Origin: Euglena gracilis | Taxonomy: Eukaryota | DNA: 42,332 nt | Assembly (NCBI GenBank): GCA_039621445.1 | Contig: CP154954.1 | Location: 7,575,425-7,617,756 of the forward strand | Direction of reading: 5' to 3' | Shown here: in pieces, positions 21,801 to 36,400 of the stretch | How the letters are laid out: each line of letters starts with the position of its first letter | Position numbering within the stretch: position 1 is the first letter of the stretch | The notes under the pieces: model-generated | The model's database searches: none | The model's input: only the letters and a program-made list of their open reading frames with translations | What the model was told of the DNA's origin: nothing | Program-made: the position numbers and the translations under genes

Positions 21801-24085
21801 GTTAAGGTACAGCAGCGATACACTACTGCCCCCCCCCCCCGGTGATCCAGTAGTCCAGTGGTTTAGTGGGGGGTTTTATTTCTGCAGGGAAGCTGATGGA
21901 GGTTTCATTTTTGGTGCATTTTTTTTAATATAGAAATAGGGTTGGGAACATGCTTGTGCTTACCAACCGGGGGGGGGGGGGTGGGTGCTATAGGGTGCCT
22001 GCCCCTAGCAGGCACACCCCCCCCCCCGGGGGAGGGGGGATAGGGGTCCGGGCCGGACCCAGAAAATTTTCATTGAAAATGGCCTTTTCCGGGCCCCCGG
22101 CGCCTTCGGCGCCGGGGTCGGAGGGGGGTGCCTGCTAGGGGCAGGCACACCCCAAAACCCTACCCCCCCGGGGGGGGGGGTCGGATCGGGTGCTATGGGG
22201 TGCCTGCCCCTAGCACCCACCCCCCCCCGTGGGGTAGGCACCCGACTAAGCGCAAACCTGGTTGGGAATATGGTTGTCCAGGAATCAGTTCCCGCACCTC
22301 TCAATCATAAACTCCTTGGGACCAAAAAGAAAATGAAAATGAATGAAAATGGATTTGTGCGGCACAGGAAAAAATGACACATGGGTGACACATGGCAACC
22401 CATTGGGTGTTGGCAACAGACGGTGCAGGAAGGCAGGAGAGGCATCCCCCACAGGAGACATTTCCTGTGCAGATGTATCCAAGCATCCACAGGACGTACA
22501 GTGCAGCGACCAGCGAATTCTATTTTTAACGAACCCCCCCCCCCGGGGTCCAGCTCAGAGGCTGGAAAATTTGGGCTGGCTGGAAAAAGGCTCCTGGCTG
22601 ACGCCCCCCCCCCCCGGGGTCAAGTTTACCCGTGGTCAAACCGGGTAAACTTCAAAATAACACACAAAAACTGCCAATCATGCAAAAAAAATCGATTTTT
22701 TGATCCCAAAATTGCCCTGGCCAGCCTAAATCCGGCCCATTTCCCCCCATTTTTGGCCCATTTTTTCACCCCACAAAAGCATATAATCCGTTACTGTCCA
22801 GCCGCCCTGAAGTGGCTGAAACATTTTTGTTAACAGAACATCCTCTATATCCTGAAAATGTCCTCACACGAAGCCTCGGGGACATATGAGCATCACAAGC
22901 TGGATATCAAATTATGCAAACGTAGATATTGCATATCTGTTGCGAAGAAGTTCGCCGAAAATGGCAGAATCCAGACAACCTTCCAACAAACTGGAAGCAC
23001 TGGAAGCATGCCACATATCATGAACAGCAGAACCCGATTAGGAAGTCATAAACACTTACATTGGCGAAACCTCAACCGCTCGATGAGCAATTAATTTTGT
23101 TTTGAGGGTCCCAGAACTCGGACTGGGCTCAGAGGGTGCCCAAGCAAATTGGGGTGATGGGAAAAGGCTGAACCATCCCGTCATTGTCCTCCCCCAGATG
23201 GACTCTCCGGCTTGAGCAAAGCCCCCCGCCCAGGGTTTGAGATATGGGCAGGTGGGGGGGCAGACCCCCCTCCAGTCCAGCAGCCCCCCCCCCCCCCGGG
23301 AGAGTGGTGCGGTGCGGGGGACCAATTTTCAGCCCGGCACAAAGCGCCGGCCCAAAAAGGCCAGGTTGGGCAGTTTTGGGGCAAAGCTTTGCCCAAAATA
23401 CCCAAAACTTTCGGCGCCGGAAGGAAAATTTTGAGGCGGGGGCAGGGTTCGATATAAGGAGGGTGTGCGGGTTAGCAGGGGAGGGTCACCCTTCTGGATC
23501 AGAGGCGGAGACCCCCCCTCACCTGGTCCAGACCAAACAGGAGGAGGTACCCGGACCCCCCCAAAAAAACAGCTTTCCAGTTGTATACAGCGGATCCGGT
23601 TGTCGGCCACGGTTTTGGTATTGGGCGGGGGCAGAGTCACAGACCGGTTCGGAGGCGGAAGGCGCAGCGGCGGCGGTGGACCCGGTTGCCGCAGCCCGGC
23701 GCCGCACACGTCACCGTCGGCGCCATCCCGTCGCCCCGGAGGCGCGGAGGACACCCCTTTCAGGCATGTTTTTGAGAAAACCCGTGGAATCGCACGTCGC
23801 ACCGCGGGAAACGGCAGTGTTGTGTTGTGAAAGAAAAAACGAAATGCGAAGCCAAACTGCAGCAGGGACGAGGCGGGGGTTCGAAAACTTCGGCTTCGAA
23901 TGTCTCAGGAGGCACCCCGGAAACGAGATTTGAACGCGCGTGATGACTGCTGCTCCCTGGAAATCACAAGAGGGGGATGAAAACCCCGTTGAATCAGCCC
24001 ACGAATGCAGTGGGGGCTGCGTAAGTGAATGGATGGGTGAGTTGGCGTGGAGCTGCCGCTCGCACACCGCGCAGAATTCCTGCAT
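900..24085 (-). CDS. Multi-exon chromatin-reader-like protein (PHD-like, ADD-like, Tudor/chromo-barrel-like, chromodomain, PHD-like); envelope only, many middle and 3' exons unresolved, could be more than one gene
   Basis: A series of GC-rich minus-strand exons with acceptor/donor signals encodes recognisable histone-reader motifs (listed separately). Further probable exons near 11535-11630, 9134-9240, 8564-8666, 3732-3864, 3010-3078, 2381-2474, 2254-2292 and 926-983. Confidence 0.6.
1033..2222. repeat. 10-bp minisatellite (CACGCCCAGT / CACACGCAGT variants), probably intronic
   Basis: About 1.2 kb of tandem 10-mers, directly visible. Confidence 0.97.
2566..3009 (-). other. Probable nonconventional intron (444 nt) related to the 20072-21287 element family
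   Basis: GGG-CAGGCCTC ... GATGCCTG-ATCCC. The end at 2571 (CAGGCATCATTGTTTAAAG followed by CCTTAAAA arrays) resembles the 20072 terminus. Confidence 0.5.
4583..5252 (-). CDS. PHD-like finger split over exons 5252-5178, 4964-4935 and 4612-4583: [45 protein letters not shown]
   Basis: The C-x2-C...LLQC-x2-C-x4-H-x2-C pattern only appears when two nonconventional introns are removed with the 3+5 rule. Canonical acceptor at 5253 and GTAAG donor at 4582. I did not find the final CxxC. Confidence 0.7.
4613..4934 (-). other. Nonconventional intron (322 nt) in the PHD-like finger
   Basis: GGC-CCCTTCTGGA ... TTCAGAGAGGG-TGCTG pair with one bulge. Join restores H-E-S-C. Confidence 0.6.
4965..5177 (-). 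other. Nonconventional intron (213 nt) in the PHD-like finger
   Basis: TTC-CATCCATCTGCT ... AGCAGTTGGATG-CCGCT (11/12 complementary). Join gives LLQC-C-YC. Confidence 0.78.
6209..6301 (-). CDS. Chromodomain exon 2: (W)[30 protein letters not shown]
   Basis: L-x-W-K-G...TW...EN chromodomain signature. GTATGC donor at 6208. Confidence 0.85.
6302..6878 (-). other. Nonconventional intron (577 nt) splitting the chromodomain
   Basis: GCC-CGGGGCAACGGC ... GTCGCTGCCCCG-CTGCC (10/12 complementary). No AG before the second exon. Frame is preserved. Confidence 0.72.
6879..6972 (-). CDS. Chromodomain exon 1: [31 protein letters not shown]
   Basis: CAG acceptor, very high GC3. F.V..VL matches the chromodomain start. 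Confidence 0.8.
7384..7477 (-). CDS. Exon (S)[31 protein letters not shown]
   Basis: CAG acceptor. A GC donor (CAG|GCACCG) gives a phase-0 join to the chromodomain exon. Confidence 0.55.
7553..7677. repeat. Short degenerate 10-mer array (CCCTGGTCGG)
   Basis: About 5 copies at 7553-7602 and 2-3 more at 7652-7677. Confidence 0.6.
7937..8069 (-). CDS. Exon [43 protein letters not shown]
   Basis: Pyrimidine tract with CAG acceptor, GT donor, phase 2 matching the next exon. Confidence 0.6.
12877..12947 (-). CDS. Tudor/chromo-barrel-like exon 2: [23 protein letters not shown]
   Basis: CAG acceptor. A phase-0 join gives YKVWYPQW, similar to the chromo-barrel motif Y.VHY.GW. The 3' end is approximate. 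Confidence 0.65.
13934..14066 (-). CDS. Tudor/chromo-barrel-like exon 1: [44 protein letters not shown]
   Basis: CAG acceptor and GT donor. The Y.VGD.VEV start is typical of Royal-family barrels. Confidence 0.7.
17132..17236 (-). CDS. ADD-like zinc-finger exon [34 protein letters not shown]
   Basis: CAG acceptor and GTATGG donor. The L-x-C-x5-C-x3-FC-x2-C-L pattern resembles the PHD part of DNMT3/ATRX ADD domains. The upstream exon near 18094-18167 ([19 protein letters not shown]) resembles the ADD GATA-like part. Confidence 0.7.
18213..19141. repeat. (CATA)n microsatellite with CATC and CA patches
   Basis: Directly visible. Confidence 0.98.
20072..21287. mobile_element. 1.2-kb hAT-like element forming nonconventional intron 21290-20067 (minus strand)
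   Basis: About 23-bp TIR CAGGCATTATT(A)TTTTTTAAGGCG at both ends, 6/8 TSD CCGCTGTC / CCGCTCTT, subterminal CCTTAAAAA arrays at 20096-20190 and 21181-21252. Confidence 0.82.
20410..21042 (+). pseudogene. Decayed reading frame inside the intron-forming element, possibly a hAT transposase fragment
   Basis: ORFs 20464-20655 and 20692-21042 share one frame interrupted by [36 protein letters not shown] loosely resembles the LQ-x5-I-x2-A-x2/3-I-x2-L helical segment of hAT transposases. This is by eye only. Confidence 0.4.
21291..21400 (-). CDS. Exon (E)[36 protein letters not shown] (W-x-C-x2-C end of a PHD finger)
   Basis: CAG acceptor ending at 21401, phase 1 compatible with the donor at 23644. 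Ends at a TIR-bounded nonconventional intron. Confidence 0.65.
21949..22260. mobile_element. 312-bp hAT-like MITE
   Basis: TIR CATGCTTGTGCTTA versus CAGGTTTGCGCTTA (11/14). Perfect TSD GTTGGGAA (21941-21948 / 22261-22268). A second copy starts at 27540. Confidence 0.9.
23645..23750 (-). CDS. PHD-like exon ...[31 protein letters not shown]
   Basis: C-x4-C-x4-H-x3-C pattern, GT donor at 23644 (phase 1). The 5' boundary is approximate. Confidence 0.65.
24053..24085 (-). CDS. Probable first exon [11 protein letters not shown] (first CxxC of a PHD-like finger)
   Basis: ATG 6 nt downstream of a pyrimidine-rich tract ending in AAG. The CAVC pair completes the PHD-like pattern of the next exon. The 3' boundary is approximate. 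Confidence 0.6.

Positions 24086-36400: not shown

What the first reader, a model, noticed from the sequence alone, without database searches (positions are those of the whole stretch)
21941..35942. Free-standing MITEs with perfect 8-bp TSDs, related to the intron-forming ones
Seen: three elements lie inside existing introns with exact 8-bp duplications: 21949-22260 (GTTGGGAA), 27821-28271 (GTCCCAAG) and 35366-35934 (CCTGGGGG). The 27821 element shares a CA....TCT.TTTAAG terminus and the central hairpin with the intron at 38552. The 21949 family has a second copy at 27540. Inference: several hAT-like families were recently active and insert regardless of exon or intron context. The TSD is therefore a transposition product and not a splicing signal. 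The targets GTCCAAAG, GTCCCAAG and GTTGGGAA hint at a site preference.
Basis: partly seen in the sequence, partly recalled or inferred. Interest (0 to 1): 0.72.

Follow-up and report, generated by a model that had tools for sequence, protein, structure and literature searches.

The report
MITE transposons mirroring Euglena-type intron code
Three small hairpin-ended DNA transposons with exact 8-base target duplications sit in non-coding parts of genes of a Euglena-like alga, and their ends and duplication length match the published cutting rule for that group's odd "nonconventional" introns, which points to where those introns came from.

Summary
E1 (21949-22260), E2 (27821-28271) and E3 (35366-35934) each have imperfect CA...TG terminal inverted repeats and an exact 8-bp direct repeat. 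So does the element at 38552-38823. Shuffled windows give about 0.02 such structures.

RNA reads place E1 inside a GT-AG intron (21401-23644, minus strand). They place E2 and the partial E1 copy at 27540 between exons of one spliced transcript.

The same reads show introns without GT-AG. Two of three have the layout 5'-N3-CAG/CAT...CTG/ATG-N5|purine. That is the published Euglena nonconventional (NC) splicing code (PMC12501133), so I take the window to be euglenid.

The central point is that the elements end in CAG...CTG and the code's spacers (3+5) sum to the 8-bp duplication. NC excision of an exonic copy would therefore remove the element plus one duplicate and restore the mRNA.

- E3 and 38552 meet the code on both strands.
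- E1 breaks one half of it.
- E2 carries the CAT...ATG variant seen in one verified intron.
- Three of four duplications fit the hAT target nTnnnnAn.

Still untested: genome-wide families, strain polymorphism, a transposase, and splicing of 38552. None of my seven literature searches found a paper showing this 8-bp link.

The parts
21941..21948 (.). E1 left target site duplication, GTTGGGAA
   Evidence: Identical to 22261-22268.
21949..22260 (.). E1, a 312-bp MITE. Ends are CATGCTTGTGCTTA / CAGGTTTGCGCTTA (reverse complement). It has a central GC hairpin with a TTCG loop and G/C-run palindromes.
   Evidence: RNA fold MFE -219.9, z -10.3. It lies inside the RNA-verified GT-AG intron 21401-23644. 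Summed DNA depth in X2 is 3.9e5-5.6e5.
22261..22268 (.). E1 right target site duplication
27540..27762 (.). E1b, an older 5' partial copy of the E1 family. It has no 3' inverted repeat and no clear duplication.
   Evidence: 83.5% identity over 236 columns; alignment. An X2 contig runs from unique DNA into it (26855-27606), so the insertion is shared with that divergent sample.
27813..27820 (.). E2 left target site duplication, GTCCCAAG
27821..28271 (.). E2, a 451-bp MITE. Its inverted repeat is CATACATCTCT(T/C)TAAGG. It carries the central hairpin TTTCGGCGCTTCGCGCCGAAA, shared with 38552.
   Evidence: In the fold the first base pairs with the last, z -7.8. Six X24 RNA reads match up to base 28271 and then run into unlike sequences, which fits other copies ending at the same base. 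X2 summed depth is 8.8e5.
28272..28279 (.). E2 right target site duplication
35358..35365 (.). E3 left target site duplication, CCTGGGGG
35366..35934 (.). E3, a 569-bp MITE of a different family. Its inverted repeat is CAGG(G)CAGAACGGGAA. It has subterminal G/C palindromes and an A/T-rich core.
   Evidence: Fold z -16.0, with the termini paired. It meets the NC splicing code on both strands. Context is inferred only.
35935..35942 (.). E3 right target site duplication
38544..38831 (-). The 38552 element (38552-38823) with its two GTCCAAAG copies. It is a predicted nonconventional intron, 38547-38826 on the minus strand.
   Evidence: Exact duplication and a 16/16 inverted repeat. It meets the code on both strands. 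Removing the element plus one duplicate leaves an open minus-strand frame across the site. There is no RNA evidence.
21401..23644 (-). Conventional GT...AG intron of gene A; it hosts E1.
   Evidence: The joint 21400->23645 is seen in 12 X21 reads, 1 X24 read and 1 X15 contig.
19640..21338 (-). RNA-verified nonconventional intron: CCC-CAG...CTG-CGTGC|A, with an inverted repeat of about 12 bp and no duplication.
   Evidence: The joint is seen in 9 X21 reads, 2 X24 reads and 1 X15 contig.
23719..24038 (-). RNA-verified nonconventional intron with the CAT...ATG variant: ACC-CAT...ATG-GCGCC|G.
   Evidence: The joint is seen in 12 X21 reads and 1 X15 contig.
18146..19576 (-). RNA-supported intron without GT-AG and without the CAG-CTG motif. 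It has a terminal stem GAGACCCC/GGGGCCTC and a 4-nt direct repeat.
   Evidence: A loose end at 19577 (8 X21 reads, 1 X15 contig) matches 18122-18145.
27037..27409 (-). Exon of gene B. The next listed exons of the same RNA contig are 30369-30469 and 30822-30913. E1b and E2 lie in between.
   Evidence: X15 record 3: 1045 nt, depth 82, with pieces at record positions 1-373, 542-642 and 643-734. The 168 nt in between were not listed.

Best explanation
E1, E2 and E3 are copies of non-autonomous cut-and-paste DNA transposons (MITEs), most likely of the hAT superfamily, in the nuclear genome of a euglenid (Euglena-like) alga.

How they insert (inferred). A transposase encoded elsewhere binds the CA(G/T)... 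inverted termini. It inserts the element across a staggered 8-bp cut, and repair leaves the exact 8-bp duplication.

What these copies do.
- Shown for E1: it landed in an intron.
- Supported for E2 and E1b: likewise intronic.
- Inferred for E3: non-coding context, probably an intron.
- In these places the copies are neutral passengers.

What an exonic copy does (inferred). The same kind of element landing in an exon, as the 38552 element appears to have done, is removed from the transcript by the euglenid nonconventional splicing pathway. The termini pair in the RNA. The cuts fall 3 nt before CAG and 5 nt after CTG, that is, inside the two duplicate copies. The excised piece is therefore the element plus exactly one duplicate (3+5=8), and the mRNA returns to its pre-insertion sequence.

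On this reading the published code N3-CDG/CH'G-N5-6|R is the footprint of these transposons. CAG/CTG are the transposon termini. The spacers sum to the duplication length. The purine reflects the target preference (..T..G/A..).

Shown versus inferred.
- Shown: the anatomy; the chance controls; E1's intron; the presence of NC introns obeying the code in the neighbouring gene; the high copy number of E1- and E2-like sequence.
- Inferred: superfamily, mobility, the splicing of 38552, and the causal link between the transposon families and the code.
For: - Exact 8-bp duplications and inverted repeats in 4 of 4 elements. Expected by chance: 0.02 per window and 0 in 30 shuffles.
- No Pfam family reached its curated cut-off in 367 ORFs, so the elements are non-coding.
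- E1 lies in a GT-AG intron supported by 12+1 reads and one RNA contig. E2 and E1b lie between exons of one RNA contig.
- Two of three non-GT-AG introns of gene A have N3-CAG...CTG-N5|A or N3-CAT...ATG-N5|G. This matches the code proved by knock-ins in Euglena (PMC12501133: abstract and Results read).
- E3 and 38552 satisfy every sequence term of that code on both strands.
- In the minimum-energy RNA folds of E2, E3 and 38552 the first element base pairs with the last. Across the four elements z runs from -7.8 to -16.
- Removing 38552 plus one duplicate leaves an open frame. Read through, that frame meets TAA five codons into the element (read).
- Targets: 3 of 4 fit the hAT preference nTnnnnAn (PMC10368747, passage; P=7.8e-4). 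The three related elements share T2 T3 G5 G6 A7 once oriented (P=5.9e-4). All 4 have a pyrimidine at position 3 and a purine at position 6 (read).
- X2 summed depth is 3.9e5-8.8e5 over E1 and E2, against about 70-100 over unique DNA.
Against: - There is no RNA evidence for E3's context or for excision of 38552.
- No empty-site allele was seen. X2 contigs break at the repeats, and only 15 of 408 joints were printed.
- No transposase is in the window, and no whole genome is held. Family structure and a duplication logo are therefore missing.
- Only two copies of any one family lie in the window (E1 and E1b).
- E2's CAT...ATG and E1's CAG...ATG do not fit the published CDG/CH'G rule. In the published assays single substitutions in CAG or CTG abolished splicing.
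- The RNA-verified NC introns here show no 8-bp duplication. For 19640-21338 I count 2 of 8 matching bases by eye, from the sequences.
- One of the three (18146-19576) has no CAG-CTG motif.
- E3's duplication does not fit nTnnnnAn.
- The summed contig depth is not a copy number, by the tool's own warning.
- The euglenid assignment rests on intron anatomy alone. Rfam and Pfam gave no taxon marker.
Confidence: 0.7

Rival explanations
1. These are real MITEs, but of another superfamily that also makes 8-bp duplications (P, Merlin, some Mutator-like elements, and others; this list is recalled, not looked up). The match to hAT is then coincidental.
For: E1 and E2 begin with CAT rather than CAG. P elements also start CATG (recalled). 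No hAT transposase was found in the window. E3's duplication does not fit nTnnnnAn.
Against: There are CAG...CTG termini in E3, in 38552 and in one end of E1. Three of four duplications fit nTnnnnAn.
Confidence: 0.18
2. E1, E2 and E3 are not passive. They are nested nonconventional introns (twintron-like) that are themselves cut out of the pre-mRNA, so 'free-standing' is a misnomer.
For: E3 meets the whole NC code on both strands. E2 has the CAT...ATG layout of the verified intron 23719-24038. The termini pair in the RNA folds.
Against: No RNA joint removing E1 or E2 is among the 15 joints printed, and 393 more were not shown. E1 has one broken half-site. The 2024 review states that NC introns are removed after conventional ones (PMC11282704, passage). 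A copy inside a conventional intron would then leave with its host.
Confidence: 0.15
3. The elements spread through RNA. Excised nonconventional introns are reported as full-length circles. They would re-enter transcripts by a reversal of the excision, followed by reverse transcription and recombination. The 8-nt repeat would then come from the 3+5 cut geometry and not from a transposase.
For: Circular NC intron RNAs are reported (PMC11282704 and PMC12501133 passages). All copies with RNA evidence here lie in transcribed DNA.
Against: The palindromic target preference of nTnnnnAn type fits a dimeric DNA transposase. The terminal inverted repeats of 14-17 bp are typical transposase sites. No reverse transcriptase is in the window.
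Confidence: 0.06
4. The repeats are chance products of a G/C-run-rich, palindrome-rich sequence and not mobile elements.
For: The window is full of G-run/C-run palindromes, and these give spurious rows in the relaxed scans.
Against: Shuffles give 0.02 and 0 structures against 3-4 observed. A second E1 copy exists. RNA reads stop matching exactly at the last base of E2. Depth over E1 and E2 is very high in an independent DNA run.
Confidence: 0.02

Closest known systems
Nonconventional introns of euglenids (Euglena agilis / E. gracilis splicing code 5'-N3CDG-/-CH'GN5-6|R; PMC12501133, PMC3935182, PMC11282704)
   Same: CAG at +4..+6 and CTG at -8..-6, paired ends, a purine at the acceptor exon, and short direct repeats at the junctions. 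Two RNA-verified introns next to E1 obey it. E3 and 38552 fit it exactly.
   Different: The papers I read treat a MITE origin as a hypothesis. The 2013 paper (PMC3935182) says no transposable element was known in euglenids. The 2025 paper set aside the 'slidable' introns with direct repeats. Here there are whole elements with intact 8-bp duplications, including copies that are not introns of their own. The 3+5 spacers equal the duplication length. I found that link in none of seven searches.
Introners of Micromonas, Aureococcus and dinoflagellates (Huff et al. 2016, seen only as a reference; Gozashti et al. 2022 and Roy et al. preprint, search listings only)
   Same: Non-autonomous DNA transposons with inverted repeats and target duplications that become introns on insertion, present in many near-identical copies.
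   Different: By the passage in PMC7789003, Aureococcus introners have canonical splicing motifs; that introners in general supply or co-opt GT...AG for the spliceosome is recalled. Here no rotation of duplication plus element gives GT/GC..AG in 7 of 8 element-strand cases. Removal would go through the non-GT-AG pathway.
Introner elements in non-canonical introns of Amoebophrya (PMC7789003, passages read)
   Same: Non-canonical introns with 8-20-nt inverted repeats that form a hairpin joining the exon ends, and direct repeats that overlap the junctions.
   Different: The direct repeats there are 3-5 nt and the splice motifs are variable, with no fixed code. Here the duplication is 8 bp and the spacing is fixed at 3/5. 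Introns here run from 320 to 2244 nt, and the X2 DNA run has about 1.5 Gb of contigs. In that respect this looks like Euglena.
hAT-superfamily MITEs and Hermes (PMC10368747, passage read; Ac/Ds and hobo termini recalled)
   Same: An 8-bp duplication; termini starting CAG; the target preference nTnnnnAn in 3 of 4 elements.
   Different: No transposase is linked to these elements. E2 starts CATACA. The sharper shared target (G/C)TT(G/T)GGA(A/C) is specific to these elements.

Membership tests
MITE (non-autonomous TIR DNA transposon) | Terminal inverted repeats | tested here: met
   Matches of 11/14, 16/17, 15/16 (one indel) and 16/16 for E1, E2, E3 and 38552.
MITE (non-autonomous TIR DNA transposon) | Target site duplication of fixed length directly flanking the termini | tested here: met
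   An exact 8-mer in 4 of 4 elements.
MITE (non-autonomous TIR DNA transposon) | Small size and no coding capacity | tested here: met
   272-569 bp. ORFs overlapping the elements had 0 Pfam families.
MITE (non-autonomous TIR DNA transposon) | Many dispersed copies forming families | tested here: inconclusive
   Only E1 and E1b are in the window. X2 summed depth is 4e5-9e5, against about 80 for unique DNA. RNA reads leave E2 at its last base into unlike flanks. No genome was available in which to count copies.
MITE (non-autonomous TIR DNA transposon) | Mobility (empty sites, polymorphism) | not tested
   X2 contigs end before E1, and none listed spans an empty site. Only 15 of 408 joints were printed.
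hAT superfamily | 8-bp target site duplication | tested here: met
hAT superfamily | Target preference 5'-nTnnnnAn-3' (PMC10368747) | tested here: inconclusive
   3 of 4 duplications fit. The background frequency is 0.059, and P(at least 3 of 4) = 7.8e-4. Four sites are too few for a logo.
hAT superfamily | Termini of the CAG/TAG type (recalled consensus) | tested here: inconclusive
   CAG at both ends in E3 and 38552, at one end in E1, and at neither end in E2, which has CAT.
hAT superfamily | Autonomous partner encoding a hAT transposase with matching termini | not testable with these tools
   None among the 367 window ORFs. No genome is held.
Euglenid nonconventional intron | 5' N3 then CDG | tested here: met
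   Met by E3 and 38552 on both strands and by E1 on the minus strand. Not met by E2, which has CAT.
Euglenid nonconventional intron | 3' CH'G then N5-6, then a purine in the exon | tested here: met
   Met by E3 and 38552 on both strands and by E1 on the plus strand only. E2 has ATG. The purine is present in 8 of 8 element-strand cases.
Euglenid nonconventional intron | Base pairing of the regions after CAG and before CTG | tested here: met
   In the MFE folds of E2, E3 and 38552 the termini pair base for base. E1 does so only in part.
Euglenid nonconventional intron | Actual removal from RNA | not tested
No joint removing E1 or E2 is among those printed.
Spliceosomal introner (Micromonas/Aureococcus type) | GT/GC...AG boundaries formed from the element and its duplication, so that splicing restores the exon | tested here: not met
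   No such rotation exists in 7 of 8 element-strand cases. The only one is GC..AG for E3 on the minus strand.

The most novel reading that the evidence does not exclude
The euglenid nonconventional splicing code is the molecular footprint of hAT-like MITEs that are still present as intact families.
- CAG/CTG are the transposon termini.
- The 3-nt and 5-nt spacers are the two parts of an 8-bp target duplication.
- The acceptor purine mirrors the transposase's target preference.

Nonconventional splicing is then an RNA-level 'precise excision' of the element plus one duplicate. On this view most 'slidable' Euglena introns are decayed insertions of this kind, and new introns are still being made. 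A further step has no evidence here: the machinery that recognises the paired termini might itself derive from the transposition apparatus.
Probability: 0.5. Interest if true: 0.85.

Novelty: new variant of a known kind. Interest (0 to 1): 0.68.

Why it matters
Euglena removes most of its introns by an unknown route that does not use GT-AG. The cis code was defined genetically only in 2025. The origin of these introns has been an open 'MITE-like?' guess since 2013.

Intact elements with exact 8-bp duplications would turn that guess into a testable model. They share the ends and geometry of the code, and they occur both where they must be spliced and where they need not be. The model explains why the spacers are 3 and 5, why junctions are 'slidable', and why a purine follows the intron.

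It also gives concrete handles for follow-up:
- family consensus sequences to search for the transposase;
- natural variants (CAT...ATG, CAG...ATG) to put through the published knock-in assay;
- insertion polymorphisms with which to date intron gain.

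Tried and rejected
- **Whole genome.** None is held, so no genome-wide clustering or duplication logo was possible.
- **Pfam.** I scanned 217 ORFs of at least 62 aa from 20000-42332 (all that passed a low-complexity filter). I also scanned 150 of 159 ORFs of at least 70 aa from 1-20000; the last 9 were not sent. No family reached its cut-off. The three weak hits (SNaCT9, YnaL, T2SSppdC) are below threshold and look like chance.
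- **Rfam** at gathering scores: 0 matches.
- **Metagenome scan** with the E2 terminus: 107 loci, each with a single match. The longest similarity to any of the four elements was 36 nt at 75% (E 2.2); for E2 it was 28 nt. All are chance.
- **Prokaryote-genome scan** with the central hairpin: 13 bacterial loci, mostly Pseudanabaena. I judged them unrelated from the record titles and single matches and did not study them further.
- **Protein representatives** with the 34-aa putative exon beside E3: 1 hit at E=3.5e-4, a 1669-aa TPR protein. Back-search on the window gave nothing better than E=0.32.
- **Sequencing runs.** No RNA holder was listed among the indexed runs. Two raw RNA runs and one guessed-RNA contig set were laid instead.
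- **Reads were laid on 19501-32380 only.** I did not send them.
- **A relaxed scan for older elements** (TIR at least 10/12) gave no convincing excess of partial duplications after the tandem-array rows are set aside.
- **Earlier findings of this scan:** nothing relevant.
- **Readings considered and dropped:**
  - Dinoflagellate or pelagophyte introners: the splice sites do not fit.
  - Diplonemid origin: their non-canonical introns have medians of 37-91 nt and their assemblies are 35-118 Mb. Introns here are 320-2244 nt, and the X2 DNA run has about 1.5 Gb of contigs.

Full report
**1. The observation**

At the stated coordinates the sequence shows three elements bounded by identical 8-mers:
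- E1, 21949-22260 (GTTGGGAA);
- E2, 27821-28271 (GTCCCAAG);
- E3, 35366-35934 (CCTGGGGG).

The comparison element at 38552-38823 (GTCCAAAG) has the same build. Each starts with CA and ends with TG. Each carries an imperfect terminal inverted repeat: 11/14, 16/17, 15/16 with one indel, and 16/16.

I scanned the whole window for an exact 8-bp repeat flanking a CA..CA inverted repeat. It returned 6 rows. Three are these elements and three lie in a CATA-type low-complexity tract. One hundred block shuffles gave a mean of 0.02. A gapped version recovered E2, E3, 38552 and one G/C-rich row that I regard as spurious. It missed E1 and found nothing in 30 shuffles.

The second E1 copy at 27540 is real. 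It is 83.5% identical over 236 columns, but it is a 5' fragment without the 3' terminus. E2 and 38552 share 33 nt of a central GC hairpin at 97% and similar termini. E1 shares the same general build.

**2. Where the elements lie**

No Pfam family reached its cut-off in 367 ORFs of the window, and Rfam found nothing. Gene structure therefore had to come from RNA. I laid two raw RNA runs, one contig set guessed to be RNA, and one DNA contig set on 19501-32380.

Three exon-exon joints define a minus-strand gene, which I call gene A.
- The joint 21400->23645 skips a stretch that reads GT...AG on the minus strand. It is seen in 12 reads of X21, 1 read of X24 and one X15 contig. E1 lies inside this 2244-nt conventional intron.
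- A loose end at 19577 matches 18122-18145, which gives a further exon.
- One frame stays open across the four junctions and is rich in cysteine and histidine.

A 1045-nt RNA contig (X15 record 3) has pieces at 27037-27409, 30369-30469 and 30822-30913. Between the first two pieces, 168 nt of the contig were not listed. E1b and E2 lie between these exons. Depth in the single-copy bins suggests that the missing 168 nt sit beyond 28900; this is my estimate from the depth table.

In the stranded run X24 the first mates lie almost only on the + strand across both genes.

Every stretch that reaches them holds a microsatellite of 210-443 bp, and the tool states that it turns such stretches away. E3's surroundings look non-coding. 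On one side is a putative 34-aa exon followed by GTGAGG, and on the other another G/C palindrome. This is inference only.

**3. What kind of genome this is**

The other two joints of gene A, and the loose-end junction, do not read GT...AG on either strand. On the minus strand:
- intron 19640-21338 reads CCC-CAG...CTG-CGTGC|A and has paired ends of about 12 nt;
- intron 23719-24038 reads ACC-CAT...ATG-GCGCC|G;
- intron 18146-19576 has a terminal stem but no such motif.

This is the anatomy of euglenid nonconventional (NC) introns. The 2024 review gives CAG at +4..+6 and CTG at -8..-6 (PMC11282704, passages). The 2025 knock-in study defines 5'-N3CDG-/-CH'GN5-6|R. It shows that the 3-nt donor spacer is strict and that the acceptor spacer is 5 nt, with 6 tolerated. 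It also shows that single changes in CAG or CTG abolish splicing and that pairing behind the motifs is needed (PMC12501133: abstract, all of Results, Discussion passages).

Diplonemid non-canonical introns are much shorter, with medians of 37-91 nt, and come from assemblies of 35-118 Mb (PMC12621601, passages). The DNA run X2 here has about 1.5 Gb of contigs, near the 1.4-1.5 Gb reported for E. agilis. I therefore read the window as euglenid, on intron anatomy alone.

**4. How the elements relate to that code**

The elements end in CAG...CTG or close variants and carry 8-bp duplications. The code's spacers are 3 and 5 nt, and 3+5=8. If an element sits in an exon, the cuts fall 3 nt before its first base and 5 nt after its last. 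The excised RNA is then the element plus exactly one duplicate, and the mRNA regains its pre-insertion sequence.

A script check of each element on each strand shows the following:
- E3 and 38552 meet every sequence term (N3, CDG, CH'G, N5, purine) on both strands.
- E1 has CAG at one end and ATG at the other, so one half-site is broken.
- E2 has CAT...ATG, which the published rule does not allow but which the RNA-verified intron 23719-24038 uses.

In minimum-energy RNA folds the first and last bases of E2, E3 and 38552 pair with each other. Z-scores against 30 mononucleotide shuffles are -7.8, -16.0 and -11.9. E1 has z -10.3 but pairs its ends only partly.

For 38552, removing the element plus one duplicate leaves an open minus-strand frame across the site. 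Left in place, the element adds 280 nt (not a multiple of 3), and that frame meets TAA five codons into the element (read).

No rotation of duplication plus element yields GT/GC...AG in 7 of 8 element-strand cases. These elements are therefore not spliceosomal introners of the Micromonas or Aureococcus kind.

**5. Transposon family**

An 8-bp duplication and CAG termini point to hAT. The Hermes transposase prefers nTnnnnAn (PMC10368747, passage).
- Three of the four duplications fit that pattern. The background is 5.9% of window 8-mers, and P(at least 3 of 4) = 7.8e-4.
- The three elements with related termini share five invariant target positions once oriented, giving (G/C)TT(G/T)GGA(A/C). 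P = 5.9e-4 for random window 8-mers.
- All four duplications have a pyrimidine at position 3 and a purine at position 6. A purine therefore follows the NC cut on whichever strand is transcribed (read).

No transposase is in the window, so membership in hAT is untested. Other superfamilies that make 8-bp duplications remain possible.

**6. Copy number and age**

In the independent DNA run X2, unique parts of the stretch differ from the window by about 1-2.5% (3-18 differing letters per contig piece of 319-738 nt). Summed contig depth there is about 70-100. Over E1 it is 3.9e5-5.6e5, and over E2 it is 3.5e5-8.8e5, at 95% identity or more. The tool warns that this is not a copy number, but it does show that near-identical sequence is very abundant.

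Six X24 RNA reads match E2 up to its last base, 28271, and then continue into mutually unlike sequences. This fits other copies that end at the same base.

E1b's bin has only 2.8e3. One X2 contig runs from unique DNA into E1b, so that older fragment is shared between the two samples.

The bins holding the verified NC intron 23719-24038 have about 2.2e3-2.6e3, that is, some repeated sequence. No empty-site allele was seen. However, contigs break at the repeats, and only 15 of 408 joints were printed.

**7. What is known and what is new**

A MITE-like origin of euglenid NC introns was proposed in PMC3935182 (dated Dec 2013), which states that no transposable element was then known in euglenids (passages). 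The idea is repeated as a hypothesis in PMC11282704, PMC11170887, PMC12501133 and PMC12621601.

The 2025 study found direct repeats at 84.4% of E. agilis introns. It excluded these 'slidable' introns and examined slides of -5 to +5 (supplement passage).

None returned a paper that shows intact families with 8-bp duplications in a euglenid, or that equates the 3+5 spacers with a target duplication. Subscription papers outside the library were not searched, for example the 2021 J Mol Biol paper on circular NC intron RNA, which I saw only as a reference.

**8. Verdict**

The best-supported account is that hAT-like MITEs sit as passengers in introns. They are built exactly like the nonconventional introns of the same genome.

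The link to intron origin remains an inference. It rests on four elements, two code-obeying verified introns, and the published code. It needs the RNA, genome-wide and strain tests listed under next steps.

Noticed in passing
window 18146-24088, minus strand: Gene A mixes one conventional GT-AG intron (21401-23644) with three introns lacking GT-AG (18146-19576, 19640-21338, 23719-24038). Its short exons (61-74 nt) keep one frame open, and that frame is rich in Cys and His, like a zinc-finger domain.
   Followed up: partly
window 20072-21287 and 24355-24638: Candidate older MITEs. Inverted repeats match 11/12 (CAGGCATTATT., CAG.AGGAAGTC), with decayed 8-bp duplications matching 6/8. The first is nested in the RNA-verified nonconventional intron 19640-21338. 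Partial duplications were not clearly above shuffles overall.
   Followed up: partly
window 22545-22800 and 19931-21220: Other very high-copy repeats lie in the same introns. X2 summed depth is 2e5, and many RNA and DNA loose ends start at 22545. The part at 22560-22610 resembles E2's GGGCTGGCT region by eye. (CCTTAAAAA)n arrays at 20096-20188 and 21180-21239 produce a spurious 957-nt joint in the DNA contigs.
   Followed up: no
window 22313-22328 versus 27806-27828: E2's insertion site (with E2 removed) resembles, in reverse orientation, a sequence 50 nt to the right of E1: CTTTTG(G)TCCCAAGG. Either the target motif recurs or E2 landed in another repeat. Seen by eye only.
   Followed up: no
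window 32383-32607, 37067-37482, 38231-38440, 38976-39418; also 1028-2223: Long microsatellites: (CACACG)37, (CA)211, (CACG)52 and (CCACA)89. A tandem array of about 1.2 kb at 1028-2223 matches itself at many offsets, at 80-84% identity.
   Followed up: no
window 18171-19310: An A/T/C-rich low-complexity tract (CATA-type repeats) that is open in all six frames. It lies inside intron 18146-19576.
   Followed up: no
window 19501-31217 (unique parts): The independent DNA run X2 differs from the window by 3-18 differing letters per contig piece of 319-738 nt (about 1-2.5%). It is therefore a different strain, allele or close species. This would be useful for insertion-polymorphism tests.
   Followed up: no
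window 24231-26810: There is almost no RNA coverage between gene A and gene B; the bins from 25091 to 26810 are at or near zero in both raw RNA runs. This is a likely intergenic spacer. No element with a perfect duplication lies in it.
   Followed up: no
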